From Candidatus Binataceae bacterium (GTDB lineage: Bacteria > Desulfobacterota > Binatia > Binatales > Binataceae), in the NCBI GenBank assembly GCA_050736695.1, contig JBOHWH010000135.1, forward strand, positions 28,504 to 92,503: DNA of 64,000 nucleotides, given 5' to 3'. The notes under the pieces were generated by a model. That model was not told the origin of the DNA, did no database searches, and saw nothing but the letters and a program-made list of their open reading frames with translations. Made by a program: the position numbers and the translations under genes. Positions 10,110 through 34,157 of this stretch are shown piece by piece; position 1 is the stretch's first letter; each line of letters begins with the position of its first letter.

Positions 10110-10187
10110 GGACGCATAGCTCAGCTCGGTTAGAGCACATGCCTCACATGCATGGGGTCGCAGGTTCAAATCCTGCTGCGTCCACCA
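10110..10187 (+). tRNA. tRNA-Val (anticodon CAC), CCA encoded
   Basis: Cloverleaf: acceptor GGACGCA/TGCGTCC, D-arm GCTC..GAGC, anticodon stem CATGC/GCATG with loop CTCACAT, T-arm GCAGG-TTCAAAT-CCTGC, then discriminator A and CCA. Confidence 0.85.
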
Positions 10188-10745
10188 TCCAGTCCCTCAG
10201 TTTACGAACATCTCGGAGAATCGCAGGAAATCCGCGCATGTGCGCGCGATTTGCGATCGCGCAGGGACCCGGAGAACGACCCTTTCGGCGTGATTCGCCA
10301 GAATCGGCCGATTTCTCTCTCGGCGCGAATTGCCTAGGTCCCACCCCACGCCTGGCGAGACGACTTCCCATGTCGGCGCGACAGAGCGATGTGTGCTGAG
10401 GACGGTCGGTCGCGCCGAAGCGCCGGCCCGAGAAGGAGAACCACATGAACGCGAATACCAAACCGGTCGCAGCCACGCCGACGCCAGCGCTGCCCTCGAA
10501 AAACAGGAAGGACGCACCTCGGCCATCGCGGTCATCGCGTGCGGCGGCCAAAGCGCAGAAGTTGGTCTGTCGATATTGCGGCAGCGACGATCTCGCGCCG
10601 TCGTTCAAGAAGCGACGCGACGCCCGCTGCCGCGCCTGCTTCAAGAAGCGCTACGGTTCTGCTACGCGCAAGAAGGACACGCGCACTCGGAACACGAAGA
10701 CCGCGAAGTAGTTTCGCGGCGCAACCAAAGTAATTGGGGCCGGGT
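10178..10745 (+). repeat. Left copy of an imperfect direct repeat (tRNA-Val 3' end plus small-gene region) marking the left border of a genomic island
   Basis: Sequence from the tRNA 3' strand (ctgcgtccacca...) through the 88-aa ORF recurs at 32606-32975. The second copy differs by base substitutions, a roughly 170-bp segment absent from it, and frame-disrupting indels. Confidence 0.7.
10445..10711 (+). CDS. Small basic zinc-ribbon protein (C4: CRYCG...CRAC), hypothetical
   Basis: GAAGGAGAA RBS lies 4 nt before the ATG. 88 aa, Lys/Arg-rich with CxxC...CxxC. A degraded second copy lies at 32690-32950. Confidence 0.5.
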   Translation: MNANTKPVAATPTPALPSKNRKDAPRPSRSSRAAAKAQKLVCRYCGSDDLAPSFKKRRDARCRACFKKRYGSATRKKDTRTRNTKTAK

Positions 10746-10825: not shown

Positions 10826-12508
10826 CTAGCGGATGCCGAGCGCCTGTTCCTGCGCGCTCCAGAGCAGAGGGAGATCGACCCGGCGGGAGAGACCGATCAC
10901 GGTGAGGTCCGGCGGCTGGCGACCTTCGGCTATCGCCTCGACGATTCGCGGCGACAGAAATGCGAGCCGAAGCAATCGATGGACGGAGCGGCGATCGAGC
11001 TGTTCCCGCCGCGCCAGCTCTGAGATCGACTGAACGCGGCCCGAGATCAGATCCAGAGACCAGCGGCGGGCGCGGGCGACCGCGTTGAGCAGGGGCAGAT
11101 CGACCCGGGCGGGGGTAGCGTCGCCCTCAAGCACCATGCGCATCTCGACTCCGCGCCGCTTCATCTGCATCGGAACGAATTTGGTCAGAGCGATGTGGCG
11201 CCGCGACGTGTCGCTCTCTCCTTCGGCCGGTGGGATCGGCAGCTTGAGCGAGACTCGGATGCCGTCGCGGCCGAGCTCGGTCCGCTCAATCAAGTCAGCA
11301 AGCGCCGCTGAAGTTTCGGTCTCGGCGCGCAGGCGCTCAATCCAAGCTTGAGCCGACTTCAGAACCGACGGCAGCCGATGCGCGTCGATGCCGGACTCCT
11401 CTGCTTTCTGCGCAATGGCATCACGGTCGGCGAGAAACTGTCGGGCAGCAGCGGAGACGGAGCGCTCAATCTCGAGCGCGGATAATCGCCATCTAGGCTC
11501 CCCACTCTCAGGCCCATTTAGGACTCGTTTCCTGGATACGTAATAGCGATAGCGGTGTTGACCTTTCGCTGCTCCCTGAACGTACAGAGGATCGCCCGTT
11601 TCATCGAACAACTTGCCGGCTAGCGGACTTCGCGGCGCCTCGGTCTTGCGGCCCTCGCCTCGGCGGACCGCACCGGTGCGCAGCCGTTCCTGGACCCGTT
11701 CCCAGAGCTCGCGGCTCAAGATGGCCTCGTGTTGCCCTGGGTAGCGTTCTTTCTTGTGTCGGATCTCCCCGAGGTAGATCGGGTTGGAGAGCAGACAGTA
11801 GAGCGCTCCGCGTGAGAAGGGCTTTCCGCCTCTTTGCCTGCCCTTCTTCGATACCTTAACCGCGGAGACAATCCCGCGCCGATCGAGGTCTCGCTTCAGA
11901 AGCCGGACGCTGCCGAGTTCCAGATAGCGCTCGAAGATCTGGCTGACCATCTTGGCTTCGCCGGGGTTGACGACGAGCTTGCGCGCGTGGACGTCGTAAC
12001 CCATTGCTAGCCCTCCACCCACCCAGATCCCCCTGCGCTTGGAGGCGGCCACCTTGTCCCGGATCCGCTCGCCGATCACTTCACGCTCGAACTGGGCGAA
12101 CGACAGCAGCACGTTCAGAGTGAGCCGCCCCATCGAGGTGGTGGTGTTGAACTGCTGGGTGACGGAGACGAACGACACGCCCTGCGCGTCGAACAACTCG
12201 ACCATCTTGGCGAAGTCCGCGAGCGAGCGGGTCAACCGGTCGACTTTGTACACGACCACCACATCGACCAAACCTTCGCGGATGCTCGCGAGCAGTTGCT
12301 GCAACGCCGGCCGCTCCATCGAGCCGCCCGAGAAGCCGCCATCATCATAGGCGGTCTTGACGAGCTTCCAGCCCTCGCCCGCTTGGCTCTTGATGAACGC
12401 CTCGCACGCCTCGCGCTGGGCGTGCAGCGAGTTGAAGTCCTGCTCCAGACCCTCTTCCGAGGACTTGCGGGTGTAAATCGCGCAACGCCTGATAGGAGTA
12501 TCAGCCAT
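10826..12508 (-). CDS. Large serine recombinase (resolvase N-domain + recombinase domain + zinc-ribbon/coiled-coil C-terminus)
   Basis: Resolvase catalytic N-terminus (CAIYTRKSSEEG...VVVYKVDRLTRS) plus a long C-terminal recombinase domain. AGGAGG RBS lies 6 nt before the ATG at 12508; the ORF-track upstream extension is spurious. Confidence 0.9.
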   Translation of the reverse strand: MADTPIRRCAIYTRKSSEEGLEQDFNSLHAQREACEAFIKSQAGEGWKLVKTAYDDGGFSGGSMERPALQQLLASIREGLVDVVVVYKVDRLTRSLADFAKMVELFDAQGVSFVSVTQQFNTTTSMGRLTLNVLLSFAQFEREVIGERIRDKVAASKRRGIWVGGGLAMGYDVHARKLVVNPGEAKMVSQIFERYLELGSVRLLKRDLDRRGIVSAVKVSKKGRQRGGKPFSRGALYCLLSNPIYLGEIRHKKERYPGQHEAILSRELWERVQERLRTGAVRRGEGRKTEAPRSPLAGKLFDETGDPLYVQGAAKGQHRYRYYVSRKRVLNGPESGEPRWRLSALEIERSVSAAARQFLADRDAIAQKAEESGIDAHRLPSVLKSAQAWIERLRAETETSAALADLIERTELGRDGIRVSLKLPIPPAEGESDTSRRHIALTKFVPMQMKRRGVEMRMVLEGDATPARVDLPLLNAVARARRWSLDLISGRVQSISELARREQLDRRSVHRLLRLAFLSPRIVEAIAEGRQPPDLTVIGLSRRVDLPLLWSAQEQALGIR

Positions 12509-13001
12509 TGGCCACCTCCTTGGCCCGGCGCTTGAGGCCGAAGAACAGTGGTCCGGACCAGTGGGTGCCGGTGATGACACGGGCGACTTCCGACAGCGAC
12601 TTGTAGCGCCGCCCACGATAGACGACGTCGTGATCGAGCACCGTGACCCGGTGATGGACGCCGCGCCATTCCCGGATCAGAACGGTTCCCGCGCCAACCC
12701 GTCGATTCGGAATACGCTCCGAAACGGCCTCTGCAAGGCCATTGCATACGCGATCGAGGATCCGCTGCGTGGATGGCCTGACGCCGCCGAGCGCTCTCTC
12801 TTGGAGCCGATACGCGATCGCCCAAATCATGAAGGACCGTCCGAGGTACGGCGACGGATCGCCACCAAACAGCGCCTTCCATCTCTGCCGCAGCGCCTCG
12901 GGATCAAGCGCGCGAAGGCTCGCAAGCTCCGTCGCCAGATCTTCGGAACCGCCAGCGCGGCGGGGCTTCCTGTTTCGATTTCGCGAACTTTCCCGTCCCA
13001 T
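12501..13001 (-). CDS. DUF2924-family protein (serine-recombinase-associated)
   Basis: Small basic protein immediately upstream of, and overlapping, the serine recombinase; this pairing is typical of DUF2924 in integrative elements. A diverged remnant copy lies at 33665-34110. Confidence 0.6.
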   Translation of the reverse strand: MGRESSRNRNRKPRRAGGSEDLATELASLRALDPEALRQRWKALFGGDPSPYLGRSFMIWAIAYRLQERALGGVRPSTQRILDRVCNGLAEAVSERIPNRRVGAGTVLIREWRGVHHRVTVLDHDVVYRGRRYKSLSEVARVITGTHWSGPLFFGLKRRAKEVANG

Positions 13002-17298: not shown

Positions 17299-18225
17299 AT
17301 GCGAGAGAAGAAGCCCAAAGAGCCATTGGTTCCGCAACTTACCCTGAGTCAGTTCGCGGGCATGTTTCCCGATGAAGCCGCCTGCAAAGCCTATCTGGTC
17401 GCACGCCGCTGGCCGCAAGGCGTCCGTTGCCCGCGCTGCCAGAATGAGAAGGTGTACGAACTGAAAACCCGCCCCTTCCACTGGGTTTGCAAGAAGTGCG
17501 GCAAAACGCCTTATCGCTTCTCGGTCACGGTCGGAACCATCTTTGAGAATACCAATTACAAGTTGCTTGTTTGGTTCAAGGTTCTGCACCTGATGGTGAC
17601 CAGCAAGAAGGGAATCAGCGCGCTTCAAATCCATCGCATGATCGGTTCCGGTTCGTACCGTACCGCATGGTTCATGTGCCATCGGCTCCGCGCCGGTATG
17701 GCCGATCCCGAGTTTCGCCAGTTGATGGGCATCGTCGAAGTGGACGAAACCTATATCGGCGGCAAGGCTCAGAACATGCACCTCAACAAGCGCAAGGCGC
17801 TCGCGCTGACCGGAACCAAAGGTAAGGCGACCGTCATCGGCGCGATCTCCCGCAAGGGCAACGTGGTCTGCAAGGTGATCGAGAATACCGATCAGTTCAC
17901 GCTCGATAGGTTCGTTCGTAAAGCGGTCAATCAAGAGCGCGTCGATATGATCATGTCGGATGAGCACGGCGGTTATCGCCTGCTCGGCACTGGACCGCAG
18001 GCAATGCCGCACGGCGTCGTGCGCCACAGCGCGGGCGAATACGTTCACGGCATTGTGCATACGAATACGATCGAAGGATTCTGGAGCCTGCTCAAGCGGG
18101 GAATCATGGGCAGCTATCACAAAGTCAGCAAGAAATATCTGCCGCTCTACATCAACGAGTTTGTGTTCCGGTACAACAATCGCAAGAATCCGGACATCTT
18201 CGGGAGCGCGATAGCAGGATGCTGA
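17299..18225 (+). CDS. IS1595-family (ISXO2-like) transposase
   Basis: N-terminal transposase zinc-ribbon (CPRCQNEK...CKKCGK) followed by an ISXO2-like DDE domain (VDETYIGG...MSDEHGGY...HTNTIEGFWSLLKRG). Confidence 0.85.
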   Translation: MREKKPKEPLVPQLTLSQFAGMFPDEAACKAYLVARRWPQGVRCPRCQNEKVYELKTRPFHWVCKKCGKTPYRFSVTVGTIFENTNYKLLVWFKVLHLMVTSKKGISALQIHRMIGSGSYRTAWFMCHRLRAGMADPEFRQLMGIVEVDETYIGGKAQNMHLNKRKALALTGTKGKATVIGAISRKGNVVCKVIENTDQFTLDRFVRKAVNQERVDMIMSDEHGGYRLLGTGPQAMPHGVVRHSAGEYVHGIVHTNTIEGFWSLLKRGIMGSYHKVSKKYLPLYINEFVFRYNNRKNPDIFGSAIAGC

Positions 18226-20045: not shown

Positions 20046-20972
20046 TTGGCGTACTCCCGGCTAAGAGTCAAGTCCAGCATAATCGCCTTCACGGAAGACC
20101 CGCCCGATCGGCCCACGCGCACCATCGAGGAGATCATCCAGGCGATCTGGGACAACCGGGACCGCGCGTACAACGTCCGATGCCTCTGCCGCCGTTTGCT
20201 CCGTATCGACAAGGAGATGTCCGGAAACGCCCGTGAGGCGTTTGCGGCCTACTTCTCGGACGGCGATATGAAGGAGTTTGCGAACCGCGTGCCGCGAGCG
20301 ATTACCGACGATTTCTCGGCGACGATGAAGCTCTTGCGCGATTCTCAATTCCAGCGGCTTCTCGTGAACTATGAGCGCGCACGGCCCTATTTCATCGTCG
20401 CCCACGAGGCCACCGACGAAGTCTCCTCGCGCATTCTGATCCGCGATGCCGCCGGCAACGAGCACCGACCCGAGGACTATCTCGCCGCGTTCGCCCGTTT
20501 CGTAAGCGAGAACCCAGATCGAATCGAGGCTATCCGCATCCTCCTGAACCGTCCCAAAGACTGGAGCACCAACGCGCTGGCGGAATTGCGCCGAAAGCTC
20601 GCCACCGCGCCGCAGCATTTCACGGAAGAGAACTTGAGGCGTGCACACGCGGCGCGCTACAACAAGGCATTGGTCGATATCATCTCGATGGTCAAGCATG
20701 CCGCCAAAGATGAAGAGCCGCTGCTGAGCGCCGCCGAGCGCGTCGATCGCGCGCTCCAGCGCCTCGCCATCGGCCACAAGTTCACCACCGAGCAGCAACG
20801 ATGGCTCGATCGCATCCGCTCGCACCTGGTCGAGAATCTCTCGATTAGCCGCGACGATTTCGATATCGTGCCCGTCCTTTCCAATCCCGGCGGATGGAAG
20901 CCAGCCGATCGCGCATTCGCCGGTAAACTCAAGCCCCTTCTGTCTGCGATAAATGAGGCTGTCGCCCAGTGA
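20046..20972 (+). CDS. hsdR: Type I restriction enzyme R subunit, C-terminal domain fragment (EcoEI_R_C-like) separated from the helicase part
   Basis: 308 aa resembling the HsdR C-terminal domain (...FTTEQQRWLDRIRSHLVENLSISRDDFDIVPVL...). It ends 4 nt into the hsdM start (operon coupling) and lies 2.75 kb downstream of the hsdR helicase fragment. Confidence 0.6.
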   Translation: MAYSRLRVKSSIIAFTEDPPDRPTRTIEEIIQAIWDNRDRAYNVRCLCRRLLRIDKEMSGNAREAFAAYFSDGDMKEFANRVPRAITDDFSATMKLLRDSQFQRLLVNYERARPYFIVAHEATDEVSSRILIRDAAGNEHRPEDYLAAFARFVSENPDRIEAIRILLNRPKDWSTNALAELRRKLATAPQHFTEENLRRAHAARYNKALVDIISMVKHAAKDEEPLLSAAERVDRALQRLAIGHKFTTEQQRWLDRIRSHLVENLSISRDDFDIVPVLSNPGGWKPADRAFAGKLKPLLSAINEAVAQ

Positions 20973-24255: not shown

Positions 24256-24781
24256 TGTCTTCTTCCTCAATCGGTCCGATTGCCTCGAGTAGCTGGACGA
24301 GTGTTAGGGGCGCACCATCTTTGCCGGTCAGCTCGTGGCGCTGGGGTGCCGCATAGCCGTTGATCTGCGCCGCATGGCGGAGCACCTTGACCCCGGCTTC
24401 AACCGACCGAGGATTGCCTTTGCGTATGCCGGGTTGGAGGTTCATGAACATCTCTTCGCACCGGGAGGTGTCGAGCTTGCGAAACTCGTCGGCTGCAATC
24501 GACGGATCGCGCGCGATCGCTCTCCGAAATGCTTTGTGAATCGCCTGCCGCGAGATTTGAAAGTCAGGCAGGAACGTGACTCCGTCCGGGATCGCGACGA
24601 TCGCCTGGGCTTGGTGTTTCCCCACGCGGGCGATCTGGTCCGCGATCGCGTCGAAGGTCAGGCCAATGCGTTTTAGATGAAGCGTTTCGGCTTCGATCCA
24701 CCTCGCCCTGAGCACCGCCGCAGAAACTACCGTTGGACGATGGGTGCCGCGCCAAGTTCCGTCCGGGTGGCGCCTCATCAC
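24224..24781 (-). CDS. Putative phage terminase small subunit
   Basis: 185-aa ORF immediately upstream of and overlapping terL, downstream of the ParB-MTase; position and size are consistent with a small terminase. Confidence 0.35.
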   Translation of the reverse strand: MMRRHPDGTWRGTHRPTVVSAAVLRARWIEAETLHLKRIGLTFDAIADQIARVGKHQAQAIVAIPDGVTFLPDFQISRQAIHKAFRRAIARDPSIAADEFRKLDTSRCEEMFMNLQPGIRKGNPRSVEAGVKVLRHAAQINGYAAPQRHELTGKDGAPLTLVQLLEAIGPIEEEDNESQKLSRTL

Positions 24782-26133
24782 TCACCCACCAATTCGGGCT
24801 TGAGGCCGAGCGCCGCCATGCGTTCCAGCGCAACCGCGACGAACGGCGGGGATTTTTCAATCGCGTAACAGCGCCGACCGGTCTGCTCGGCCGCGACCAA
24901 CTGCGATCCGCTGCCAGAGAACGGCTCGTAACAGATGTCGCCGCGCTCGGTGTGCATCTCCATGGGAAGCGCGAACAACCGGCAAGGCTTACAGGTTGGA
25001 TGTGCGTCGGTCTCGACTTCCGAACTTGGGACTTCCCAGACCGTGCTGGGAAACTCGCCCGCGATTTTGCCGAGATCTGAGCGTAGCGTCTTGGGTTTCT
25101 CGCCTCTGATCCAACCGAACAAACATGGTTCGTGCTGCCAGAGGTAGGTCGAGTAGGTCAACACCGGGCGACTCTTGACCCAAATGATCTGCTGGTGAAC
25201 GAAGGCGCCGAACTCGCCCCAGATCGATTCGAGCATCATCTGGCGGCGCGATGCGTGCCAGCAATACCACGCGGCGTTGCGGACAATCGCATGCTCGATC
25301 GCCATCCCGATGAACCCGCGGTAGAGTTCGACTCCTGCCTCCTCGGCGTTCTTAACGTCCGCGCTTTTCGCTTCCACGTACACCCCCGACCAATTCTTGT
25401 CGCGGTTTGCAGCGCCTCGATTTCCCCAGCTCTGTGGATGGGAACCGCCGGTGTACCCGACCGCGTAGGGCGGGTCGGTCGCGAACAGGACCGCGCGCTC
25501 GTCGCCCATCAACCGCGCGACGTCCTCGGGTTTGGTTGCGTCACCGCAGAGCAGGCGATGCGCGCCCACTCGCCAGAGTTGGTTCGCGCGCGTGCCCCAT
25601 TTTTTCTGGAGTTCGGCTGCTTGCTCGATTTGTGCCGGCGGTTCGGCCTGCGGATGGATCAGGCTCCACAGCCGGTCGCCTGCGGTACGCCGAAGGAGAT
25701 CTTCAACCGCGGGGCTATCGGTTCTCACGGTCTGGAGAAGCGTTCCGATTCGCTCGGAGTCGGATTCGGCTAGGGAAGCGAGCGGATCGAGGGTAAGCAA
25801 CAGTTTGTCCGCCTCCGCTTCATCGAGGTCCAGAATGAGCACCGGAACTTCGAAGTCCGGCGTGGTTTCGGCGCGCAAGTGACCGTCAATCAACATGAGC
25901 CTTCCGTTTCCCAGTTCGCGGGCAAGCAGCGCGTCGGCGTACCCGATCTCGGCGAGAAGGTCACGCAGGGCATTCGCCTGAGCCTTTGGATGGCGCCGCC
26001 AGTTTTTCGGATTGGAAAGCAGGTCCCGAGCCGGGACTCGACGCAGCTCTCTTATGCGATCCCGAATCGCGATGGCGCCGTTGGAATTTGTTGATGTTGC
26101 GTTAGCCATTCGACATCTCGGTTCAATTCTCAT
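24778..26133 (-). CDS. ParB-like nuclease domain fused to an N-4/N-6 DNA methyltransferase (phage-type orphan MTase)
   Basis: N-terminal ParB/sulfiredoxin-like motif (LIDGHLRAE) and a C-terminal MTase with the DPPY motif (FATDPPYAVGY) plus a SAM-binding region (YEPFSGSGSQLVAAEQTGRRCYAIE). Confidence 0.85.
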   Translation of the reverse strand: MRIEPRCRMANATSTNSNGAIAIRDRIRELRRVPARDLLSNPKNWRRHPKAQANALRDLLAEIGYADALLARELGNGRLMLIDGHLRAETTPDFEVPVLILDLDEAEADKLLLTLDPLASLAESDSERIGTLLQTVRTDSPAVEDLLRRTAGDRLWSLIHPQAEPPAQIEQAAELQKKWGTRANQLWRVGAHRLLCGDATKPEDVARLMGDERAVLFATDPPYAVGYTGGSHPQSWGNRGAANRDKNWSGVYVEAKSADVKNAEEAGVELYRGFIGMAIEHAIVRNAAWYCWHASRRQMMLESIWGEFGAFVHQQIIWVKSRPVLTYSTYLWQHEPCLFGWIRGEKPKTLRSDLGKIAGEFPSTVWEVPSSEVETDAHPTCKPCRLFALPMEMHTERGDICYEPFSGSGSQLVAAEQTGRRCYAIEKSPPFVAVALERMAALGLKPELVGE

Positions 26134-27435: not shown

Positions 27436-27795
27436 AAACGGATACTTTTAACGGTGTGGTTTACCACGGCCGCGCGGATCGGATGGAAACTGGATTAATC
27501 GCAACGGTCTCTGGGTTTCCGTCGGGCCTCTTTATCCCTGCCTTAGAGTTGATCCTGTTGCAAAAAAGCCTGGTATAGGACTTGTTGGTAGGCAAGACAC
27601 TTGATCGAGTTTATCTTCAGCTGGTTGATTATTTGTGCTGTGACTTCGCGCAATGGTACGTTACGCTGCGCGGGCTGGACTTCTTGATCAGAAGGCTGAG
27701 GATACGACTGAGACAGAAATCCGTTACCCCGACGTGAGAGCCCGCAGGGAACGTTCGGCGTCGAGATGCGGAACTCCTCCGTCGGCGGGAAGGCA

Positions 27796-30651
27796 ATGAA
27801 ATCATCGAGGGTTCGTTCAACCAATCGCGTGCGCGTGTTGTTGGGGGTAGCGGTTCTCCTGGCAGCGATCGCGGGCTACCGGCAGGTTGTAGGGGCGCAA
27901 TCACAACCCCGCGCTTTGATCACCGAGCCGGTCAGCGATACCAAGCTGGTCACGCTCGCGGGTAATACGCGTCCGGAGGCGAACTCACGCTACGATCGCG
28001 GGCCGGTCACTGACAGCTTCCGGATGGAGCATATGTTCCTCCAGTTGCGACGCTCTCCCGGAGCGGAGCACGCCCTTCAGCAGTACATGGGACAACAGGC
28101 CGACCCCAAGTCACCAAACTATCACCATTGGTTGACGGCGCAGGAAATCGGTCAGCGGTACGGTCTGGCCCCGGAAGATATGGTCACGATCACCGGGTGG
28201 CTCCAGTCCCACGGCTTCACTGTCAATGTCGTTTATCCCAACGGCATGGTGATCGACTTCTCGGGTACGGCAGGCGAGGTGCGCAAGGCTTTCCACACCG
28301 AGATTCATCGCCTTGATGTGGACGGCAAGCTACATATCGCCAACATGAGCGATCCGCAGATTCCGGCCGCGCTCGTGCCGGCAGTGGTCGGCATCGTGTC
28401 GCTGAACGACTTCCGGCCGCATCCGATGCGCACGAAAAGCTCGAACTTCTCGCGGGGCGGTACTTGCGGCCCATTGGGCGCTCCGTGTGAGAAGCTCGTA
28501 CCTGCCGACGTCGATACCATCTACAACTTGAATCCGCTCTTTTCCGGCAGTATCACCGGGCAAGGCGAGAGAGTCGTAGTGGTCGAAGATAGCGATGTCT
28601 TCAATCCTGGCAACGCGATTTGTATGGGGAATGGCACTCCCACCGGCTGTTGTTCGGGTTTCGGAACAGGATCCTGCGGCACCGGAGACTGGGACACCTT
28701 CCGCACTACTTTCGGCCTTGCCAGCGACTTCCCGAACGGACGTTTCGTGCAGTTCCAACCGCCACCGCCCAGCGGCTCGAACAATTGTAGCGATCCGGGC
28801 GCCGTCACAGACGTTGATGTCGAGGCGATCCTCGATGCGGAATGGGCCTGCGCGTCGGCGCCCAACGCGACTATCCTTATGGGCTCGTGCGCGGACGTCA
28901 CTACCGGATCTTTTGGGACGACATTGGCTTCGGGAGTTTTTGTCGCACTGCAGAACATTCTAAACGGCGCGCTGAGCCCGAAGCCGGATGTGGTGAGCGT
29001 CAGTTACGGCGAATCGGAGGCAGTTAACGGCGCGTCGTCCAACGCCGCCATCGACTCGCTGTATCAGACGGGCGTGGCGGGAGGCATTTCAATTTTCGTT
29101 GCTGCGGGCGATGCCGGTTCGGATTCTAATGACGAGGATCGAGGGCCGCCTCCATCCGCGGCAACCTTCGGAATCAGCGTGAGCGGATTTGCGTCCAGCC
29201 CGAACGACGTGGCGGTGGGTGGCACCGATTTCGGTGACTTCTTAACCAACACCAGCTCCACATACTGGAATGCGTCGAATGGGGCCAACGATGGCTCGGC
29301 CCAGTCCTATGTGCCGGAAATCCCGTGGAACGACTCGTGCGCCAGCGACCTGTTGTCCGGATTCATGGGCACGGTCTCAACCTTTGGCCCAAGTGGCTTG
29401 TGCGAACTTGCTTTGTTCGGAAGCGGGATTTGCACGAGTAACCGCGAGCCATACGGGTGTTGTGATGGGCCGGGGAGCGGCATTTGTCCACAACCCGATT
29501 TTTCGCTGCAAGTCGCCGGCGGCAGCGGCGGCCCAAGCAGCTGTGCGAGCGGAGCGCCGTCCACGAGCGGCGTGGTAAGCGGGACCTGTAAAGGATGGAC
29601 CAAGCCTGGTTATCAATCGGTTTTTGGCAACCCGAGCGACGGCGTTCGCGATGTTCCCGACGTCGCGCTGTTCGCCGCAGACGGATTGTGGGGGCATTGC
29701 TACGTGTTTTGCAATTCCAACCCTGCGGACATGAATTCATGCACTGGCGACGTCAGCACCTGGCCTTGCGCGGGCGGGACCTCGTTCGCCTCGCCGATAA
29801 TGGCCGGCATCCAAGCTCTGGCCGATCAGAAGACCGGCAGCGATCAAGGCAACCCGAATACCACCTACTATTCGCTCGCGCGCACCGAGTATGGCGCGAG
29901 TGGCAACGCCAGCTGCAAGTCGAGCCTGGGTAACGGAGTTTCAAGTTCGTGCATCTTCTATGACATAACCCAGGGTGACAACGACCAACCATGCGTTGTA
30001 GGCGACCCGAACTGTTTCGCCGACGGAGTACCTACCGGGGATGTCGGCGTGCTGTCCACGTCAAACTCGTCGTTCCAGAACGCATTTGGGGCGAACGCCG
30101 GATGGGACTTCGATACCGGCATCGGGACCGTCAATGCCACCAATCTCGTGATGGCATTTGCCGGCAGCGTGACGGTAACGGTAACGGCAACCGCGACTGC
30201 AACGTCAACCAGCGGCACGCCGACAACAACCGCAACGTCAACTACGCCTAGCACCGCGACTCCGTCGGCAACAATGACTGCTACCGCTACCGCGACGAAG
30301 ACCGCAACGCCGACGGCTACTGCGACGCCGGGCGGCGGGCGAGTCTCGGTGAACCGGAAGAAGCTCGTGCTCAACGCGTCGCCGATGGCGACGGCGTCCT
30401 CAAGTATCACTATTGGCAACAGGGGGACGGGCCCGCTGACGGCTAACGTAAGCGCCCCGGAACACGACCCCCCATTTACGGAGGTTGGTGGAGCAAGGGG
30501 GATTGTGATCGGTCCGGGCTTAAACCACGAAGTGATAATCGTGTACGCGCCGACGAAGAAAGGATCGAGGAGCGATCAGATCTTGATCACGAGCGATGAT
30601 CCCACGCATAAGAAAGTAATCAAGGTGAAAATCAAGGGTAGGGCGAAATAG
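27796..30651 (+). CDS. Secreted sedolisin-like serine peptidase (S53: pro-kumamolisin activation domain + peptidase) with a Cys-rich insert, a Thr/Ala/Pro-rich linker and a C-terminal beta-sandwich domain
   Basis: GGGAAGG RBS before the ATG at 27796. Signal peptide, then an S53 pro-domain (...QYMGQQADPKSPNYHHWLT...). The catalytic serine motif is GGTSFASPIMAG. The linker (TVTVTATATATSTSGTPTTT...) is followed by a roughly 100-aa terminal domain. Confidence 0.8.
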   Translation: MKSSRVRSTNRVRVLLGVAVLLAAIAGYRQVVGAQSQPRALITEPVSDTKLVTLAGNTRPEANSRYDRGPVTDSFRMEHMFLQLRRSPGAEHALQQYMGQQADPKSPNYHHWLTAQEIGQRYGLAPEDMVTITGWLQSHGFTVNVVYPNGMVIDFSGTAGEVRKAFHTEIHRLDVDGKLHIANMSDPQIPAALVPAVVGIVSLNDFRPHPMRTKSSNFSRGGTCGPLGAPCEKLVPADVDTIYNLNPLFSGSITGQGERVVVVEDSDVFNPGNAICMGNGTPTGCCSGFGTGSCGTGDWDTFRTTFGLASDFPNGRFVQFQPPPPSGSNNCSDPGAVTDVDVEAILDAEWACASAPNATILMGSCADVTTGSFGTTLASGVFVALQNILNGALSPKPDVVSVSYGESEAVNGASSNAAIDSLYQTGVAGGISIFVAAGDAGSDSNDEDRGPPPSAATFGISVSGFASSPNDVAVGGTDFGDFLTNTSSTYWNASNGANDGSAQSYVPEIPWNDSCASDLLSGFMGTVSTFGPSGLCELALFGSGICTSNREPYGCCDGPGSGICPQPDFSLQVAGGSGGPSSCASGAPSTSGVVSGTCKGWTKPGYQSVFGNPSDGVRDVPDVALFAADGLWGHCYVFCNSNPADMNSCTGDVSTWPCAGGTSFASPIMAGIQALADQKTGSDQGNPNTTYYSLARTEYGASGNASCKSSLGNGVSSSCIFYDITQGDNDQPCVVGDPNCFADGVPTGDVGVLSTSNSSFQNAFGANAGWDFDTGIGTVNATNLVMAFAGSVTVTVTATATATSTSGTPTTTATSTTPSTATPSATMTATATATKTATPTATATPGGGRVSVNRKKLVLNASPMATASSSITIGNRGTGPLTANVSAPEHDPPFTEVGGARGIVIGPGLNHEVIIVYAPTKKGSRSDQILITSDDPTHKKVIKVKIKGRAK

Positions 30652-30771: not shown

Positions 30772-32361
30772 CTATTTGTTCTTCGGCGCTTTCCCCGTTC
30801 CCGACAGCTTCACCGACTGCTGCTCAGCATTGTCGATGATCATCAGGGTGGCCGTAGACGATACGGCGGCGGTCGGCGCGAACGTAATTCCGATCGCGCA
30901 CTCCGAGCCTGGGTATAGCTCCGCCGGAAAACTGCACCTATTATCCACGCCGAACGGACTGCCCCCTCCGCTGAGTCCTTCGATCAGCACAGTGATACCG
31001 GGCTTCTTCTTGCTCCCCTTGGGATTGCGCATGATGACACGCTTGGGCCCCTTAAGACTCCCTACCTCCACGCTGCCGAAATTCAGCGATGTCGGTCTGA
31101 TCCTGAGCTCAACCGGTACCGGTGTTGGCGTCGGTGTTGGCGTCGGTGGAATTCCAGGGCCTATTGCGTAAAGGCGATTTGGCCCATACGGATAGACGTT
31201 CATGTAGATCGTTCCGTCGGCGCCGATCGCCGGCGCTCCTTCTATAAGGGAAATACCGCCGGCCGCGGTGGCGAACTTCCACTTAATGGAGCCGTCGGGG
31301 TTGATCGCGTAGATATTCCCGTCATTGGCGCCAACATAGATAGCGCCATCGGCTCCAATCGCCGGCGACGAGATTACCGCCGCGTCCTCAGTAAAAACTT
31401 GCCACCTGAAACTGCCGTTGGGGTTTAACCCCCACACGCTGCGTCCGTCTCCAAAATAGATTGCGCCATCGGCCCCAATAGCTGGCGAGGATAGTACCCA
31501 GTAATTCGGTGACTGGAACCGCCACTTTAACGAACCGTCGGGATTGATGGCGAACAGGTAGGCGATACTATTCGGGTAACCCCCAGTAAATTCGGAACCG
31601 ACATAGATAGTACCATCCGCCCCTACTGCCGGAGAAGACTCCACGTCGCCAGGCGTCGTGAAGAACCACTTCAACGAGCCGTCGGGGTTTACTGCATAGA
31701 CGTTGTAGTCAGCGGAACCAAAGTAGATTGTTCCGTCGGTAGCGATCGCCGGAGAGGACATCTCATTGGTCCCATAATTTCCTTCCGCCAGCACCCACTT
31801 CGCGGTGCCGTCGGGGTTGATCGCATACAGTTTGCCGTCATCGCAGTACACGTAGATGGTTCCATCGGCTCCGATTGCGGGCGAGGATTCTAATTCAAAG
31901 CCGGTTTGGAAAATCCACTTCAATGTACCATCCGGATTTACTGCGTATAGGTAACCGGTTCGGATATCGCCGGCTGAAGGAGCGTAGATCGTTCCATCGG
32001 CTCCGATTGCGGGCGAAGGGTACAGTGGCCAGGCGGCTGCGAACGTCCACTTCACCGTCCCGTCCTGATTAAATGCGTAGAGATTATTGTCTCCAGGCGT
32101 TGAATAGATGGTTCCATCCACGCCAAGGGTGGGCGACGATAGCGGCGCAAAAATAGTGCCCCCTGGGTAAACAAACAACCATTTCTGGACGCCGTTGTTG
32201 GCGCTGGTGTCGAATGAGCTTTGGCCAGTGTGTGCAGAGTCGTGCCGGAAGACCGGCCAAGGCGAAGCCGCCAGTTGTGCACGCGGCGCGCTCGTCAACG
32301 AGACTATGAGCAAAACGCCAGCGGCCAAACTCAATAAAACGATCGGACCAATTCGGCCCAC
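30772..32361 (-). CDS. Secreted PQQ-type beta-propeller repeat protein with TPTPTP linker and C-terminal beta-sandwich domain
   Basis: About nine repeats of ...SSPAIGADGTIY...NPDGS.KW.F... form a PQQ-like/BamB-like propeller. A signal peptide is present. The linker is PTPTPTPTPVP, and the C-terminal domain resembles that of the adjacent S53 protease. Confidence 0.75.
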   Translation of the reverse strand: MGRIGPIVLLSLAAGVLLIVSLTSAPRAQLAASPWPVFRHDSAHTGQSSFDTSANNGVQKWLFVYPGGTIFAPLSSPTLGVDGTIYSTPGDNNLYAFNQDGTVKWTFAAAWPLYPSPAIGADGTIYAPSAGDIRTGYLYAVNPDGTLKWIFQTGFELESSPAIGADGTIYVYCDDGKLYAINPDGTAKWVLAEGNYGTNEMSSPAIATDGTIYFGSADYNVYAVNPDGSLKWFFTTPGDVESSPAVGADGTIYVGSEFTGGYPNSIAYLFAINPDGSLKWRFQSPNYWVLSSPAIGADGAIYFGDGRSVWGLNPNGSFRWQVFTEDAAVISSPAIGADGAIYVGANDGNIYAINPDGSIKWKFATAAGGISLIEGAPAIGADGTIYMNVYPYGPNRLYAIGPGIPPTPTPTPTPVPVELRIRPTSLNFGSVEVGSLKGPKRVIMRNPKGSKKKPGITVLIEGLSGGGSPFGVDNRCSFPAELYPGSECAIGITFAPTAAVSSTATLMIIDNAEQQSVKLSGTGKAPKNK

Positions 32362-32524
32362 GTCCTTGTAACGTTTCGTTGGATTTCCCCCCGCTTACTC
32401 GGTCCCCGCTCGCAGACGCTATTTTGGTACTCATGGAGAGACGGTGCAACCTTTTTCCCATCCAGGTAGTAGGGTCTGAGCATTACTAGAACGTCGTTTG
32501 GCTTGCCTATCCGGAAAGCGGCGC

Positions 32525-32586
32525 GTCAACCGCCAGGGCTGTCAACCGCCGCTTGTCAACCGCCCCATAGTGTCAACCGGTTGACA
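32525..32586 (+). promoter_or_regulatory. Iteron array: three direct GTCAACCGCC repeats (14-16 bp phasing) plus the palindrome TGTCAACCGGTTGACA, adjacent to the right island junction
   Basis: GTCAACCGCC occurs at 32525, 32541 and 32555. The perfect 16-bp palindrome lies at 32571-32586. The array is 20 bp upstream of the tRNA-3'-end-like repeat (32606). Confidence 0.4.
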
Positions 32587-32605
32587 GAGAGCACCTGCTA
32601 TCGGA

Positions 32606-32975
32606 CTGCGTCATCCACCATTCAGTCTCTTAGTATTCGCACATCTCGGAGAGCCGCGCGAAATCCGCGCTGGCCCGAGAAGGAGAACCACGTGAACGCG
32701 AATACTAAACCCGTCGCTGCTACGCCGCCGCCGGCGCTGCCTTCGAAAAACAGGAAGGACGCGCCTCGGCCATCGCGGTCATCGCGTGCAGGCGGCCCAA
32801 GCGGAGAATTTGGTTTGTCGATACTGCGGCAGCGAAGATCTCGCGCCGTCGTTCAAGAAGCGACGCCCGATGCCGCGCCTGCTTCAAGAACCGCTACGGT
32901 TCGGCTCCGCGCAAGAAGGCCACGCGCACTCGGAAGCCGAAGGCTGCGAAGTAGTTCGCGGCGCAACCAATGTCA
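32606..32975 (+). repeat. Right copy of the direct repeat (tRNA-Val 3'-end-like sequence plus pseudogenised copy of the small zinc-ribbon gene), marking the right border of the island
   Basis: ctgcgtcatccacca...acatctcggaga...gaaggagaaccacgtgaacgcgaatac... is collinear with 10178-10745, apart from a roughly 170-bp segment that it lacks and several indels. Confidence 0.7.
32690..32950 (+). pseudogene. Degraded paralog of the small zinc-ribbon protein gene (frame-disrupting 1-bp and 5-bp indels)
   Basis: Same N-terminus (MNANTKPVAATPPPALPSKNRKDAPRPSRSSRA), but the CxxC region appears only in a shifted frame (the 32786 ORF: ...LVCRYCGSEDLAPSFKKRR...). Confidence 0.55.
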
Positions 32976-33122
32976 TTGGGCGCGGGGGAACCCGTGACAC
33001 GCACGCGGGGTACACAGGTTCGTGGCGTGATAATGAAAATCCTTTGGCCCAACAATCAGGCGCGAACTTCGCATTTGCAAACTAAATGGTTTTGGTGCCA
33101 AGTCTCACCCAGGTGAAGTATA

Positions 33123-33701
33123 ATGCGAATCAAAGGAGTTGACCCGGAGCATGTCCCGGAGAGCGTAAAGTCAATCTTTCAACGAAGCCTCGACCTGTTC
33201 GGGCGTGTCATCACGCCCAGTACGGTGCTGGCGCATCGGCCGGAGATTCTGCTCGCCGCAGGACAATTGGGCAAGGCGGTTGGCGCCTCGACGGTGGTCG
33301 AGGGCCGTCTCAAGACGATGGTCTCGGTGCGCGCGGCGCAAATGGTCGGCTGTCCCTTTTGAGTAGACATCAACTCTGCCGTCGGCAGAAACGCCGGTAT
33401 TACCGATGAGCAACTCGGAGATTTAGCCACCTTCGAGACCAGTGCGCGTTTCGACCGCCGCGAAAAGGCAGCGTTGCGCTATGCCGAAGGGATGACGCGC
33501 ACGCCCGCTGATGTCTCCGAGGCGGTGTTCGAAGAGGTGAGATCGTTCTTCAACACGGAGCAAATGGTGGAATTGACAGCGGCGATCGCGCTCGAGAATT
33601 TCAGGGCGCGGCTCAACTGCGCGTTCAAGGTCGAGAGCGACGGCTTGTGCCTGCTGCCGGCTGATCATCCAGTGCGCAAGGCGTTGGCCAAACGTCCGTG
33701 A
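33123..33701 (+). CDS. AhpD-like (carboxymuconolactone decarboxylase family) protein with one in-frame TGA at the CxxC position; candidate selenoprotein (CPF-U), otherwise a nonsense pseudogene
   Basis: ORFs 33123-33362 and 33474-33701 are in the same frame, and the only intervening stop is TGA at 33360-33362. The TGA falls where CMD proteins carry the second Cys of Gly-Cys-x-x-Cys (here GCPF-TGA-VD). A 5-bp-stem hairpin (CTGCC-GTC-GGCAG, 33376-33388) puts G and U in the loop at +22/+23 from the UGA, close to the G23/U24 geometry of the E. coli fdhF SECIS. No Sec-machinery genes are in the window. Confidence 0.5.
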
Positions 33702-34110
33702 ATCCGGATGCCGCGGAGGATTCGATAGCCCCGGTCTGAACGGCGGACTGAACCCGGCGCCCACGTCCTGAGGCCAAAGAACAACGGCCCCGGCCGGCGG
33801 CTGCCGGTGATGAGACGCGCGATCTCTGAAAGAAAGCGGTATTGCTTGCCGCGAAAGAGCGCGCCGTGTTCGAGCACCGTCACCTGATGCTGGACTCCGC
33901 CCCGCTCGCGCAGCAGGATGGCGTCGGCTTAGAGTTTGCGCACGGAGACGACTCTAATCGGCCTGCACTCACCCACATTGTTGGCGACCTGTTCGAGCAG
34001 GCGGTGCGTGGCGGAGCCAGTCCGCCGGGCGTGCGTTCCTTCATGCGGTAGACGACCGCGCGGCTCCGGCGTTGACAACCACGATCGCGGGCGTCTCCGT
34101 AAGTTGCTTT
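33665..34110 (-). pseudogene. DUF2924-family gene remnant (frameshifted), with its partner recombinase deleted
   Basis: The 33665-33883 ORF matches the intact DUF2924 C-terminus ([37 protein letters not shown] vs TVLEHGALFRGKQYRFLSEIARLITGSRRPGPLFFGL). The 33880-34161 ORF, in another frame, matches the mid-region (YRLQERALGGVRPSTQRILDRVCNG vs YRMKERTPGGLAPPRTACSNRS). No recombinase follows. Confidence 0.5.
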
Positions 34111-34157
34111 TCGCGCGGATTGGGTTTGAGAAACCACAGCCCGCATGCGCCCGGATT

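What the first reader, a model, noticed from the sequence alone, without database searches (positions are those of the whole stretch)
32519..32620. Iteron array (3 x GTCAACCGCC plus the 16-bp palindrome TGTCAACCGGTTGACA) abutting the right island junction
Three direct copies with 14-16 bp phasing, followed by a perfect palindrome built from the same half-site, lie 20 bp from the tRNA-3'-end-like attR core. This architecture is typical of arm-type or accessory protein-binding sites (recombination directionality factor, repressor or centromere-like). No coding feature explains it, and no equivalent array exists at the left end. The island also encodes a ParB-domain protein.
Basis: seen in the sequence. 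Interest (0 to 1): 0.6.

Follow-up and report, generated by a model that had tools for sequence, protein, structure and literature searches.

The report
Conserved repeat array beside island attachment site
The repeats are real and form part of a roughly 140-base module, conserved at one end of a family of mobile islands in Binatia soil bacteria, that sits beside the point where a large serine recombinase appears to insert the island at the CCA end of tRNA genes; this enzyme class is thought to need no such extra sites.

Summary
GTCAACCGCC occurs three times (32525, 32541, 32555), followed by TGTCAACCGGTTGACA (32571-32586); no shuffle reached three copies.

It is the variable-copy part of a ~140-nt module (32482-32620): an AT-rich box, 2-6 direct GTCAACC(G/A)CC units, a palindrome, usually one more inverted half-site, and a tRNA-like tail ending CATCCACCA. 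The module recurs in 39 of 40 soil or peat metagenome hits, two Binatia MAGs and one IMG/VR contig. Conservation stops exactly at CCACCA.

The islands carry no tyrosine integrase. They carry a large serine recombinase (LSR) co-transcribed with a DUF2924 protein. An empty tRNA-Val site in a relative shows that the sequence right of CCACCA is element DNA. In the window, 32606-32620 therefore joins two tandem elements and is not an island/host junction.

Each unit (GTCAA-CC-RCC) mimics the central 10 bp of the inferred crossover site (GTCAT-CC-ACC).

Best reading (about 0.5): accessory protein-binding sites in the P arm of attP/attR. The binder is unknown: LSR, DUF2924 or the small zinc-ribbon protein.

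Tested without support: RNA gene, the CI-type repressor operator in one relative, a Rep-type origin, and ParB/parS. A regulatory or packaging role remains possible.

The parts
32484..32501 (+). AT-rich box (window: TACTAGAACGTCGTTTGG; family consensus AAnATAACAnCGTTTnA). It marks the left edge of the conserved module.
   Evidence: The nhmmer module hit starts at 32482. The box is partly conserved across the 32-sequence alignment A2 (mean pairwise identity 0.49), while the 40 columns to its left show 0.16.
32525..32534 (+). Direct repeat unit 1: GTCAACCGCC, preceded by GC (GCGTCAACCGCC).
   Evidence: It corresponds to the family's unit -3, consensus gcGCGTCAACCaccg.
32541..32550 (+). Direct repeat unit 2: GTCAACCGCC.
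   Evidence: Family unit -2, consensus cGTCAACCGCCGCt; 26 of 32 loci keep at least 2 such units.
32555..32564 (+). Direct repeat unit 3: GTCAACCGCC (TTGTCAACCGCC).
   Evidence: Family unit -1, consensus GctTGTCAACCGCCGct.
32571..32586 (+). Perfect palindrome TGTCAACCGGTTGACA: a fourth direct half-site fused to one inverted half-site. Most relatives carry a further GGTTGACA 8 nt downstream, which is missing here.
   Evidence: It is also present in the three relatives found by searches that did not require it: L036, L076 and L183.
32587..32620 (+). tRNA-like tail of the module, GAGAGCACCTGCTATCGGACTGCGTCATCCACCA. This is the inferred P half of the crossover site. The core unit GTCATCC is at 32610-32616, and family conservation ends at CCACCA (32615-32620).
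   Evidence: It resembles the T-arm and acceptor 3' strand of tRNA-Val (10154-10187) but carries indels.
32603..32628 (+). Inferred crossover site: the dyad GGACTG (32603-32608) / CAGTCT (32623-32628) around a 14-nt spacer, with proposed central dinucleotide CC at 32615-32616.
   Evidence: Read directly from the sequence. The limits on the crossover come from comparing intact tRNAs, module|flank classes and an empty site. The diverged relative L183 has AGACTC-N14-GAGTCC with the same centre CC. This is an inference; the site has not been demonstrated.
32621..32670 (+). Truncated 'class (i)' sequence, the left (P') arm of a second, decayed element. It lacks the 187 nt corresponding to 10238-10424.
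32693..32953 (+). Frameshifted copy (+1, then -5 nt) of the small zinc-ribbon gene; part of the remnant element.
   Evidence: Repeat families D5-D7 show spacing changes of 22247, 22248 and 22243. Translation gives a stop codon.
33668..33928 (-). Remnant of a DUF2924 gene belonging to the decayed tandem element.
   Evidence: It clusters by BLASTP with the DUF2924 proteins of L076, L121, L148 and L159. DNA repeat D4 matches at 71%.
10110..10187 (+). tRNA-Val(CAC); its 3' end is the inferred attL crossover point.
   Evidence: ARAGORN. The same tRNA has an empty downstream site in L174 and L175.
10188..10444 (+). Full-length 'class (i)' P' arm, including the GC-rich imperfect palindrome GAAATCCGCGCATGTGCGCGCGATTT.
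   Evidence: It is absent from the empty site.
10445..10711 (+). Small basic zinc-ribbon protein (88 aa, CxxC...CxxC); candidate DNA-binding factor.
   Evidence: Only weak zinc-ribbon Pfam hits.
10826..12508 (-). Large serine recombinase (560 aa as annotated in the 100%-identical database protein P0001).
   Evidence: Pfam Resolvase + Recombinase. PDB sequence matches to TP901-1, Bxb1, SPbeta and phiC31 integrases. Homologues listed.
12501..13001 (-). DUF2924 protein (166 aa); its gene overlaps the recombinase start by 8 nt.
   Evidence: Pfam E = 5.8e-42. The same overlap is seen in L161, L163, L164 and L166.

Best explanation
The array is the repeat-bearing part of a conserved ~140-bp module. 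That module forms the P arm of the attachment site (attP in the free element, attR once integrated) of a family of phage-like, defence-gene-carrying islands in Candidatus Binataceae. The islands encode a large serine recombinase (LSR) co-transcribed with a DUF2924 protein, and usually a small zinc-ribbon protein. They insert at the CCA end of tRNA-Val(CAC) or tRNA-Ala(CGC) genes. The crossover is inferred to lie inside (T)CCACCA, probably at the CC in the centre of the dyad GGACTG-N6-CC-N6-CAGTCY.

The array lies 25-130 bp to the element side of that point. Its layout is 2-6 direct units (3 plus the palindrome's left half in this window), a head-to-head pair, and usually one more inverted unit. 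Each unit, GTCAA-CC-(G/A)CC, copies the central 10 bp of the crossover site, GTCAT-CC-ACC.

I propose that the units are accessory binding sites for an element-encoded protein: the LSR itself, DUF2924 or the zinc-ribbon protein. That protein would assemble cooperatively next to, and perhaps onto, the crossover centre. It would thereby control the efficiency or direction of recombination, in the way res accessory sites, integron attI DR1/DR2 sites or lambda Xis sites do.

Shown: the repeats, their conservation, their fixed place beside the core, the element boundaries, and the absence of a tyrosine integrase. Inferred: that the LSR performs this insertion, the exact crossover point, that a protein binds the units, and what that binding does.
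For: (1) The array is non-random.
(2) The same architecture recurs in 37 distinct sequences including the window. The two central units were not part of the metagenome search pattern, yet they are kept in 26 of 32 aligned loci. The palindrome is present in all 3 relatives found without requiring it.
(3) Conservation ends exactly at CCACCA. At least 5 unrelated right-flank classes follow it, and the left flanks are unrelated (identity 0.16).
(4) Left neighbour genes are heterogeneous, so the only constant partner, across the circle junction, is class(i)-ZnR-LSR-DUF2924.
(5) That contiguous attP-type order is seen in L159, L139, L076 and L121/L148, and in the compact viral contig L183: cI -> array-core <- LSR.
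(6) An empty tRNA-Val site in L174/L175 lacks class(i) and shares at most CCACCATCCAGT with attP.
(7) The backbone gene order is consistent, with the LSR next to attL and the module at the far end, in the window, L161/L135 and L125/L150.
(8) No Phage_integrase hit was found among the island ORFs scanned; the LSR is genuine.
(9) The unit and core consensus sequences are related: gcGCGTCAACCaccg versus ctGCGTCATCCACCa.
(10) The attP dyad keeps its symmetry in L183, with GGACTG/CAGTCC becoming AGACTC/GAGTCC.
(11) No covariation or Rfam support for an RNA.
Against: No binding or recombination data exist. Characterised serine integrases use ~40-50-bp att sites without accessory sites (established knowledge), so the array may be unrelated to recombination and simply sit in the same short intergenic region.

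The distance from palindrome to core varies (38, 46-49, 53, 57 nt), which is loose for a rigid nucleoprotein architecture, although the steps are roughly one helical turn. The units lack the outer GACTG dyad motif that an LSR recombinase domain would be expected to read, so the LSR may not be the binder.

About 60% of modules are followed by another element's left arm. That requires frequent tandem accretion, which standard attP x attB logic for serine integrases does not readily give.
Confidence: 0.5

Rival explanations
1. Transcriptional control element. The units and palindrome would be operator or activator sites for an element-encoded regulator, for example the small zinc-ribbon protein acting like the P2 Ogr / P4 Delta zinc-finger activators that bind TGT-N12-ACA dyads. 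The target would be a promoter in or next to the module. Alternatively, the linkage of these sites to ZnR/LSR changes on integration, as with lambda sib.
For: Every unit read on the - strand contains TTGACA, and the palindrome is TGT-N10-ACA. The AT box read on the - strand resembles an extended -10 (TGTTATTTT in several loci). In about half of the loci the neighbouring gene starts just left of the module on the - strand. In the circular order the module lies ~250-400 nt upstream of ZnR. The Ogr/Delta and sib comparisons are from memory.
Against: The promoter scan finds no sigma-70-type promoter in 32250-32800. Left neighbours are unrelated, and in the other half of the loci they converge on the module. 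In L183 the MTase-TerS-TerL operon has its own divergent promoter region with the cI gene, and the CI operators there (TTGCATAnTATGCAA) are a different motif. This reading does not explain why the units copy the crossover centre.
Confidence: 0.2
2. Packaging, replication or partition site. This would be a pac/cos-type site read by the island's terminase small subunit (possibly dependent on methylation of GTYRAC by the island's methylase, as Dam sites are in the P1 pac site), an iteron origin, or a parS-like centromere for the ParB-like methylase.
For: The backbone conserves methylase, a 185-aa protein and a terminase large subunit. Repeats plus an AT-rich box resemble cosB, pac or origin layouts. 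The 16-bp palindrome has parS length. Comparisons with P1 pac, lambda cosB and parS are from memory.
Against: The distance to the terminase genes varies from 1.3 to more than 6 kb because cargo is inserted between them, while the distance to the att core stays within 38-57 nt. No Rep initiator or ParA gene was seen among the island ORFs scanned, and ParBc was not detected in the window protein at E <= 0.01. The 14/14/18-nt phasing is unlike the ~22-bp phasing of iterons. Decayed and mini elements without terminase genes keep the module, for example L132.
Confidence: 0.1
3. Evolutionary debris. The units would be tandem duplications of the att core left by imprecise recombination, with no present function.
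For: The units are clearly related to the core and to the tRNA-Val 3' end. Copy number varies from 2 to 6.
Against: Unit sequence, the 14/14/18 spacing and the palindrome are kept across elements whose LSRs differ by 15-39% in protein sequence, while the adjacent DNA is unalignable.
Confidence: 0.07
4. A small structured RNA gene ending in CCA: a tRNA-like or tmRNA-like 3' domain preceded by repeats.
For: Conservation ends exactly at CCACCA, and the last 34 nt resemble a T-arm plus an acceptor 3' strand.
Against: No Rfam match at E <= 10. ARAGORN finds nothing there. RNAalifold on 32 sequences gives 7 invariant pairs, none covarying, and a covariation term of +0.22. The CCA edge is explained by the crossover point.
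Confidence: 0.03

Closest known systems
Lambda-type attP P arm (arm-type Int sites, Xis X1/X1.5/X2 and IHF sites next to the core)
   Same: A ~100-150-bp element-side arm with several directly repeated protein-binding sites and an AT-rich box, directly beside a crossover core. The target is the 3' end of a tRNA gene, and tandem accretion of elements occurs at that tRNA.
   Different: No tyrosine integrase is present; the recombinase is a large serine recombinase. The repeat units resemble the core, whereas lambda arm sites do not. The repeats are on one arm only.
res sites of Tn3/gamma-delta and Sin/beta serine resolvases (crossover site I plus accessory sites II/III, some in direct repeat)
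   Same: A serine recombinase with accessory sites built from the same sequence word as the crossover site, within ~130 bp in cis and mixing direct and inverted orientations.
   Different: Here the enzyme is a 560-aa integrase-type LSR, and the reaction is integration into a chromosomal tRNA gene, not intramolecular resolution. The units copy only the central 10 bp, not a full 12-bp half-site pair. Binding by the recombinase is not shown.
Integron attI (simple site plus direct repeats DR1/DR2 bound by IntI)
   Same: Extra directly repeated copies of the core-type word on one side of the crossover site, acting as accessory sites (from memory).
   Different: IntI is a tyrosine recombinase, and there is no attC-like single-stranded partner.
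Simple att sites of characterised serine integrases (Bxb1, phiC31, TP901-1, A118)
   Same: The LSR gene lies next to attL. There is a short imperfect dyad around a non-palindromic central dinucleotide, with only 6-12 nt of attP/attB identity. The Bxb1 attP inner left half-site GTCAACCACCGCG (sequence verified) matches the array's distal unit consensus at 12 of 13 positions.
   Different: Those sites are ~40-50 bp with no accessory repeats, and their directionality factors act on the protein rather than on DNA (established knowledge). The LSR here is only a distant relative of Bxb1 integrase (phmmer E = 1.7e-15 over the catalytic and recombinase domains; roughly a quarter identical by eye), so the motif match may be coincidence.
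SCCmec / Ccr recombinases
   Same: LSR-mobilised islands that accrete in tandem at the 3' end of one conserved gene. NCBIfam's best hit for this LSR is CcrB, far below the cutoff.
   Different: The target is rlmH rather than a tRNA, two recombinases are used, and no repeat array is known at attSCC (from memory).
phiRSM-type small serine recombinase integration, and the S-Int islands in t(m)RNA genes predicted by TIGER/Islander
   Same: Serine-family recombinases associated with tRNA gene targets. Mageeney et al. 2020 counted 14 of 297 S-Int islands in t(m)RNA genes and called such use previously unreported and in need of proof (PMC7192596).
   Different: phiRSM uses a small resolvase-like enzyme. 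No accessory array is described for either.

Membership tests
Lambda-type arm sites (heterobivalent tyrosine integrase system) | Element encodes a tyrosine recombinase with an arm-binding domain | tested here: not met
   No Phage_integrase hit in the island ORFs scanned with Pfam or PHROGs. The only recombinase is Resolvase + Recombinase.
Lambda-type arm sites (heterobivalent tyrosine integrase system) | Arm-site sequence is distinct from the core-type sequence | tested here: not met
   The unit consensus GCGTCAACCaCC and the core GCGTCATCCACC differ at one or two of 12 positions, depending on the unit.
Lambda-type arm sites (heterobivalent tyrosine integrase system) | Repeats lie in the element-side arm within ~150 bp of the crossover core | tested here: met
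   Units lie 25-130 bp left of CCACCA in all family members.
Serine-integrase (LSR) attachment site | LSR gene (Resolvase + Recombinase domains, >450 aa) adjacent to one element end | tested here: met
   The 560-aa LSR is at 10826-12508, 640 nt from the tRNA-Val end. The arrangement is the same in L164/L165.
Serine-integrase (LSR) attachment site | Short imperfect dyad around a central dinucleotide shared by attP and attB | tested here: inconclusive
   The dyad GGACTG-N6-CC-N6-CAGTCY is centred in the shared (T)CCACCA, and L183 keeps the symmetry. The cleavage point was not determined.
Serine-integrase (LSR) attachment site | Minimal ~50-bp site is sufficient, with no accessory DNA sites | not testable with these tools
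   Needs recombination assays with truncated attP. The conserved extra ~100 bp is what departs from this rule.
res-type accessory sites of serine resolvases | Accessory sites carry the same recognition word as the crossover site and lie in cis within ~150 bp | tested here: met
res-type accessory sites of serine resolvases | The recombinase itself binds the accessory sites, and the reaction is resolution between two res copies | not testable with these tools
   Binding is unknown. The genomic evidence points to integration at tRNA genes, not resolution.
Iteron replication origin | Adjacent Rep initiator gene | tested here: not met
   No Rep-like family in the island or next to the module. Left neighbours are heterogeneous.
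Iteron replication origin | 17-22-bp iterons at about 22-bp phasing | tested here: not met
   Units are 10-13 bp at 14/14/18-nt spacing.
ParB/parS centromere | ParA-ParB operon next to a palindromic parS | tested here: not met
   No ParA. The methylase (24778-26133) gives only N6_N4_Mtase at E <= 0.01 and lies 6.4 kb away. The palindrome is 16 bp.
CI-type repressor operator | The same motif occurs in the repressor's own divergent promoter region | tested here: not met
   In L183 the cI/MTase intergenic region carries TTGCATAnTATGCAA repeats and no GTCAACC.
Structured RNA gene (tRNA-like or tmRNA-like) | Covariation-supported secondary structure, or a match to a known family | tested here: not met
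   Rfam gives no match. RNAalifold gives no covarying pairs. ARAGORN is negative.

The most novel reading that the evidence does not exclude
A large, DUF2924-linked clade of serine integrases would use a complex attP, unlike every characterised serine integrase. In this reading an array of core-mimicking sites beside the crossover point recruits the recombinase or its DUF2924 / zinc-ribbon partner. This lets the element integrate at the generic CCA end of more than one tRNA species despite an unrecognisable host-side half-site, and recombine with resident copies to build tandem defence islands.
Probability: 0.3. Interest if true: 0.8.

Novelty: new variant of a known kind. Interest (0 to 1): 0.6.

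Why it matters
Serine integrases are valued in genome engineering because their att sites are short and need no accessory DNA or host factors. They are also thought to avoid tRNA genes. This family has thousands of recombinase homologues in soil metagenomes, and the DUF2924-recombinase gene pair also occurs in Wolbachia phage WO. It appears to break both rules: it inserts at tRNA CCA ends and keeps a ~100-bp multi-site arm under strong constraint.

If the array controls efficiency, direction or target choice, it would be a new layer of regulation for this enzyme class. It would also give DUF2924 or the zinc-ribbon protein a first function. Finally, it would help explain how tandem defence islands build up at tRNA genes in Binatia.

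Tried and rejected
It therefore could not give a genome-wide density.
2. The first viral scan (palindrome + core) found nothing. A looser unit pattern gave 36 hits, of which one (L183) was related.
3. RNA gene: Rfam, ARAGORN and RNAalifold were all negative.
4. I first took ORF 30772-32361 for the integrase; it is a secreted beta-propeller cargo protein.
5. I considered that 'class (i)' was native host DNA downstream of the tRNA; the empty site in L174/L175 refutes that.
6. I considered the class (i) GC-rich palindrome as the true crossover site, because three rearrangement junctions fall at its centre (L132, window 32670/32671, L036). It cannot explain module|host junctions that diverge right after CCACCA, so I kept it only as an unexplained hotspot.
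7. A Bxb1-like register would put the crossover at the CA of TCCAGT; the same junctions reject it.
8. Clustering of neighbour genes found no conserved left neighbour.
10. Of 10 loci (5 distinct contexts) fetched through LSR homologues, none had the module next to the LSR. L166 shows a different left part fused to tRNA-Ala 3' fragments.
11. L130 was expected to be a complete 13.5-kb element, but its interior is IS elements and housekeeping-type genes.
Full report
**Observation.** The window carries GTCAACCGCC at 32525, 32541 and 32555 on the + strand, and TGTCAACCGGTTGACA at 32571-32586. The 10-mer occurs nowhere else in 64 kb. Chance expectation is 0.23, and none of 100 dinucleotide-preserving shuffles reached 3 copies. 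GTCAACCGS occurs 6 times, 5 of them here. The palindrome is unique, its nearest relative having 3 mismatches. With two mismatches the word is not enriched elsewhere. Start-to-start spacing is 16, 14 and 17 nt, counting the palindrome's left half as a fourth direct copy.

**Setting in the window.**
- tRNA-Val(CAC) lies at 10110-10187.
- Downstream come a 257-nt non-coding stretch that I call class (i), then an 88-aa zinc-ribbon ORF (10445-10711).
- Next, on the - strand, is a large serine recombinase (LSR; Resolvase + Recombinase domains). A DUF2924 gene overlaps its start.
- Further in lie a type I restriction R-like gene split by an IS1595 transposase, a terminase large subunit, a 185-aa ORF, an N6/N4 methylase, a sedolisin-like protease and a secreted beta-propeller protein.
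- No tyrosine integrase was found with Pfam or PHROGs among the island ORFs scanned.
- The LSR matches the solved TP901-1, Bxb1, SPbeta and phiC31 integrases by sequence. A 100%-identical database protein is annotated as coming from a Candidatus Binataceae MAG.
- The array sits between the beta-propeller gene start (32361) and a tRNA-3'-end-like CTGCGTCATCCACCA (32606-32620).

**The stretch right of 32620 is not host DNA.**
- 32606-32986 is an 80-92% identical copy of 10173-10744. It carries a 187-nt deletion and a frameshifted zinc-ribbon gene.
- 33668-33928(-) is a DUF2924 remnant.
- The window therefore holds an apparently complete element (about 10188-32620) followed by the stump of a second related one. 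Host genes resume at 34158.

**Relatives.**
- A scan of 185,579 species genomes for three spaced GTCAACCG words mostly returned unrelated tandem repeats. Two Binatia-type MAG loci, L036 and L076, carried the same array, palindrome and CATCCACCA tail.
- A metagenome scan for palindrome-N15-45-CATCCACCA gave 40 loci from soil and peat, of which 39 are true relatives.
- A later viral-contig scan for two adjacent units found one more diverged relative, L183.

**Shared module.** Alignment of 32 distinct sequences (A2) and a half-site scan of 37 show one architecture:
- an AT-rich box (AAnATAACAnCGTTTnA);
- direct units at -46, -32 and -18 relative to the palindrome's left half at 0;
- inverted units at +7 and usually +15;
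- GAGAGCAGTTCGCATCGGACTGCGTCATCCACCA.

There are 2-6 direct units per locus, most often 4.

**How strong the conservation is.** The two central units were not part of the search pattern, yet they are intact in 26 of 32 loci. DNA 40 nt left of the AT box is unalignable (identity 0.16). The palindrome is present in all three relatives found without requiring it.

**Where the module ends, and what that means.**
- Conservation stops exactly at CCACCA. It is followed either by class (i) or by at least five unrelated flank classes.
- Class (i) also follows intact tRNA-Val in the window and tRNA-Ala(CGC) in L132, L162 and L164.
- Two relatives that share one orthologue of the neighbouring FAD oxidoreductase, L174 and L175, have tRNA-Val followed by TCCAGTTCTCCCCAGTCTCGC and a host hydrolase gene. 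Neither class (i) nor the module is present there. Class (i) is therefore element DNA: the arm next to the LSR gene.
- The layout is then classical. attL = tRNA | class (i)-ZnR-LSR-DUF2924. attR = ...module | host flank. Module | class (i) is the attP order, or a junction between tandem elements.
- That attP order is seen in L159, L139, L076 and L121/L148. It is clearest in the 9.8-kb viral contig L183: CI-like repressor gene -> AT box, units, palindrome, core <- LSR <- DUF2924, with methylase, the 185-aa ORF and terminase transcribed divergently from cI.
- The tRNAs at attL are intact, and module|flank junctions diverge straight after CCACCA. The crossover must therefore lie within (T)CCACCA.
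- A dyad, GGACTG-N6-CC-N6-CAGTCY, is centred on the first CC (window 32615-32616). In L183 it reads AGACTC-N6-CC-N6-GAGTCC, which preserves the symmetry.
- This looks like a serine-integrase site, but the cleavage point is inferred, not shown.

**What the array is.**
- Genes to its left differ from locus to locus and often converge on it. It is therefore not the operator of a fixed neighbour.
- In L183 the CI operators (TTGCATAnTATGCAA) lie elsewhere and carry no GTCAACC.
- No RNA family, tRNA/tmRNA model or covarying helix supports an RNA gene.
- No Rep or ParA gene was seen among the island ORFs scanned. The window methylase gives no ParB hit at E <= 0.01.
- The array's one constant relationship is its 38-57-nt distance from the crossover core.
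- Its units echo that core. The consensus sequences are gcGCGTCAACCaccg, cGTCAACCGCCGCt and cttGTCAACCGCCGct for the units, against ctGCGTCATCCACCa for the core.
- In other words, each unit copies the central 10 bp of the crossover site (GTCAA-CC-RCC versus GTCAT-CC-ACC) without the outer GACTG motif.

**Proposed mechanism.** I conclude that the array is most likely a set of accessory protein-binding sites in the P arm. It would work like res accessory sites, integron DR1/DR2 sites or lambda Xis sites. A protein would load cooperatively on the repeats and reach the crossover centre, setting efficiency or direction. Candidate binders are the LSR, the co-transcribed DUF2924 protein and the zinc-ribbon protein.

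As a lead only: the distal unit consensus matches the Bxb1 attP inner left half-site GTCAACCACCGCG at 12 of 13 positions (sequence verified). Bxb1 integrase is only a distant relative.

**Rivals and cautions.**
- A transcriptional role remains possible. Units contain TTGACA on the - strand, the palindrome is TGT-N10-ACA, and a zinc-ribbon protein is encoded nearby. However, the promoter scan is empty.
- A pac-type site is possible because terminase genes are conserved. The array, though, keeps its distance to the core and not to those genes.
- Pure duplication debris is unlikely given the conservation.
- Characterised serine integrases need no accessory DNA. Use of tRNA genes by them has been called unreported and unproven (14 of 297 predicted islands; PMC7192596).
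- The frequent module | class (i) junctions imply tandem accretion, which standard attP x attB logic does not readily predict. SCC elements do accrete in this way (from memory).
- The metagenome set was selected on palindrome + CATCCACCA, so only the other parts count as independent conservation.

**Verdict.** The interpretation as accessory sites beside an attachment site is partly supported, with three corrections: the junction is element/element, the recombinase is a serine integrase, and the ParB and CI-repressor ideas lack support. The finding is a new variant of a known kind. It deserves bench tests, because it concerns a large and uncharacterised integrase clade.

Noticed in passing
window 32606-34157: Stump of a second, related element in tandem. 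It comprises a truncated class (i) arm, a zinc-ribbon pseudogene (32693-32953; +1 and -5 nt frameshifts) and a DUF2924 remnant (33668-33928, - strand). The recombinase gene is deleted, and host genes resume at 34158.
   Followed up: partly
window 10213-10250; L132 160-175; window 32660-32672; L036 ~775-800; L154: The class (i) arm contains a conserved GC-rich imperfect palindrome (GAAATCCGCGCG-TG-TGCGCGCGATTT). Three independent rearrangement junctions fall at its centre: the L132 left copy, the window's 187-nt deletion, and L036. In L154 the segment is inverted. It may be a fragile palindrome or a second recombination site.
   Followed up: partly
L132 1-1210: A mini-island of ~880 nt: tRNA-Ala(CGC), a 56-nt perfect direct repeat (CCACCA + 50 nt of class (i)), one AT-rich ORF, the module, the repeat again, then full class (i). 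It has no recombinase and may be a deletion derivative that can be mobilised in trans.
   Followed up: partly
L166 6700-7000 and 8640-8960 (also L167-L171): Next to another DUF2924-LSR pair, two copies of a different ~100-nt sequence are fused to a tRNA-Ala 3' fragment (..GGCAGTTCAAATCCCTTCTGCTCCACA) and class (i). They separate housekeeping-type genes (GST; SDR + F420H2-dependent quinone reductase) in a cassette-like way. There is no GTCAACC array. The same context occurs in 12 contigs.
   Followed up: partly
window 15304-17295, 17299-18225, 20046-20972: A type I restriction R-subunit-like gene (ResIII/HSDR_N at the 5' part, EcoEI_R_C at the 3' part) appears to be interrupted by an IS1595-family transposase gene.
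   Followed up: no
L161, L162 (flanks of the LSR gene): Related islands carry dense anti-phage cargo: DarT plus an ADP-ribosylglycohydrolase-family gene, SIR2, adenosine deaminase, type I restriction-modification, ThiF/Multi_ubiq, and HTH-Peptidase_M78 pairs. The family acts as a defence-island carrier at tRNA-Val and tRNA-Ala genes.
   Followed up: no
L172 1700-9870: In another relative, the same tRNA-Val gene hosts a tyrosine-integrase island flanked by a 40-nt repeat of the tRNA 3' end. The tRNA is thus a shared hotspot for two integrase classes.
   Followed up: no
L163 9600-9740: Just past the stop codon of a 74%-identical LSR lie three GGCTGTC-type repeats, the last reading GGCTGTCAACC. 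CGTCCACCA and CATCCACC words lie in the last codons of the gene. These may be related sites or coincidence.
   Followed up: no
L114 4349-4404; L017 459-497 and 715-752; L003 3258-3297; L021 3560-3599: Unrelated bacteria (Wenzhouxiangellaceae, Myxococcales, Falsiroseomonas and an alphaproteobacterial MAG) also have arrays of GTCAACC words at 14-16-nt periods. L114 has the same GTCAACCGCC unit at a 14-nt period. L017 has two opposed arrays about 230 nt apart. No LSR or DUF2924 lies within these 8-kb loci.
   Followed up: no
window 30772-32361 (- strand) and 27766-30651 (+ strand): The cargo next to the array is a secreted PQQ/BamB-type beta-propeller protein, with 43-44-aa repeats and a C-terminal ASH/Ig-like domain, plus a 961-aa sedolisin-like protease with a similar Ig-like domain. 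L036 carries related proteins near its module.
   Followed up: no
window 32525-32564 versus the Bxb1 attP sequence quoted in bioRxiv 10.1101/110254: The distal unit consensus GTCAACCACCGGG matches the Bxb1 attP inner left half-site GTCAACCACCGCG, which abuts the central GT, at 12 of 13 positions.
   Followed up: partly
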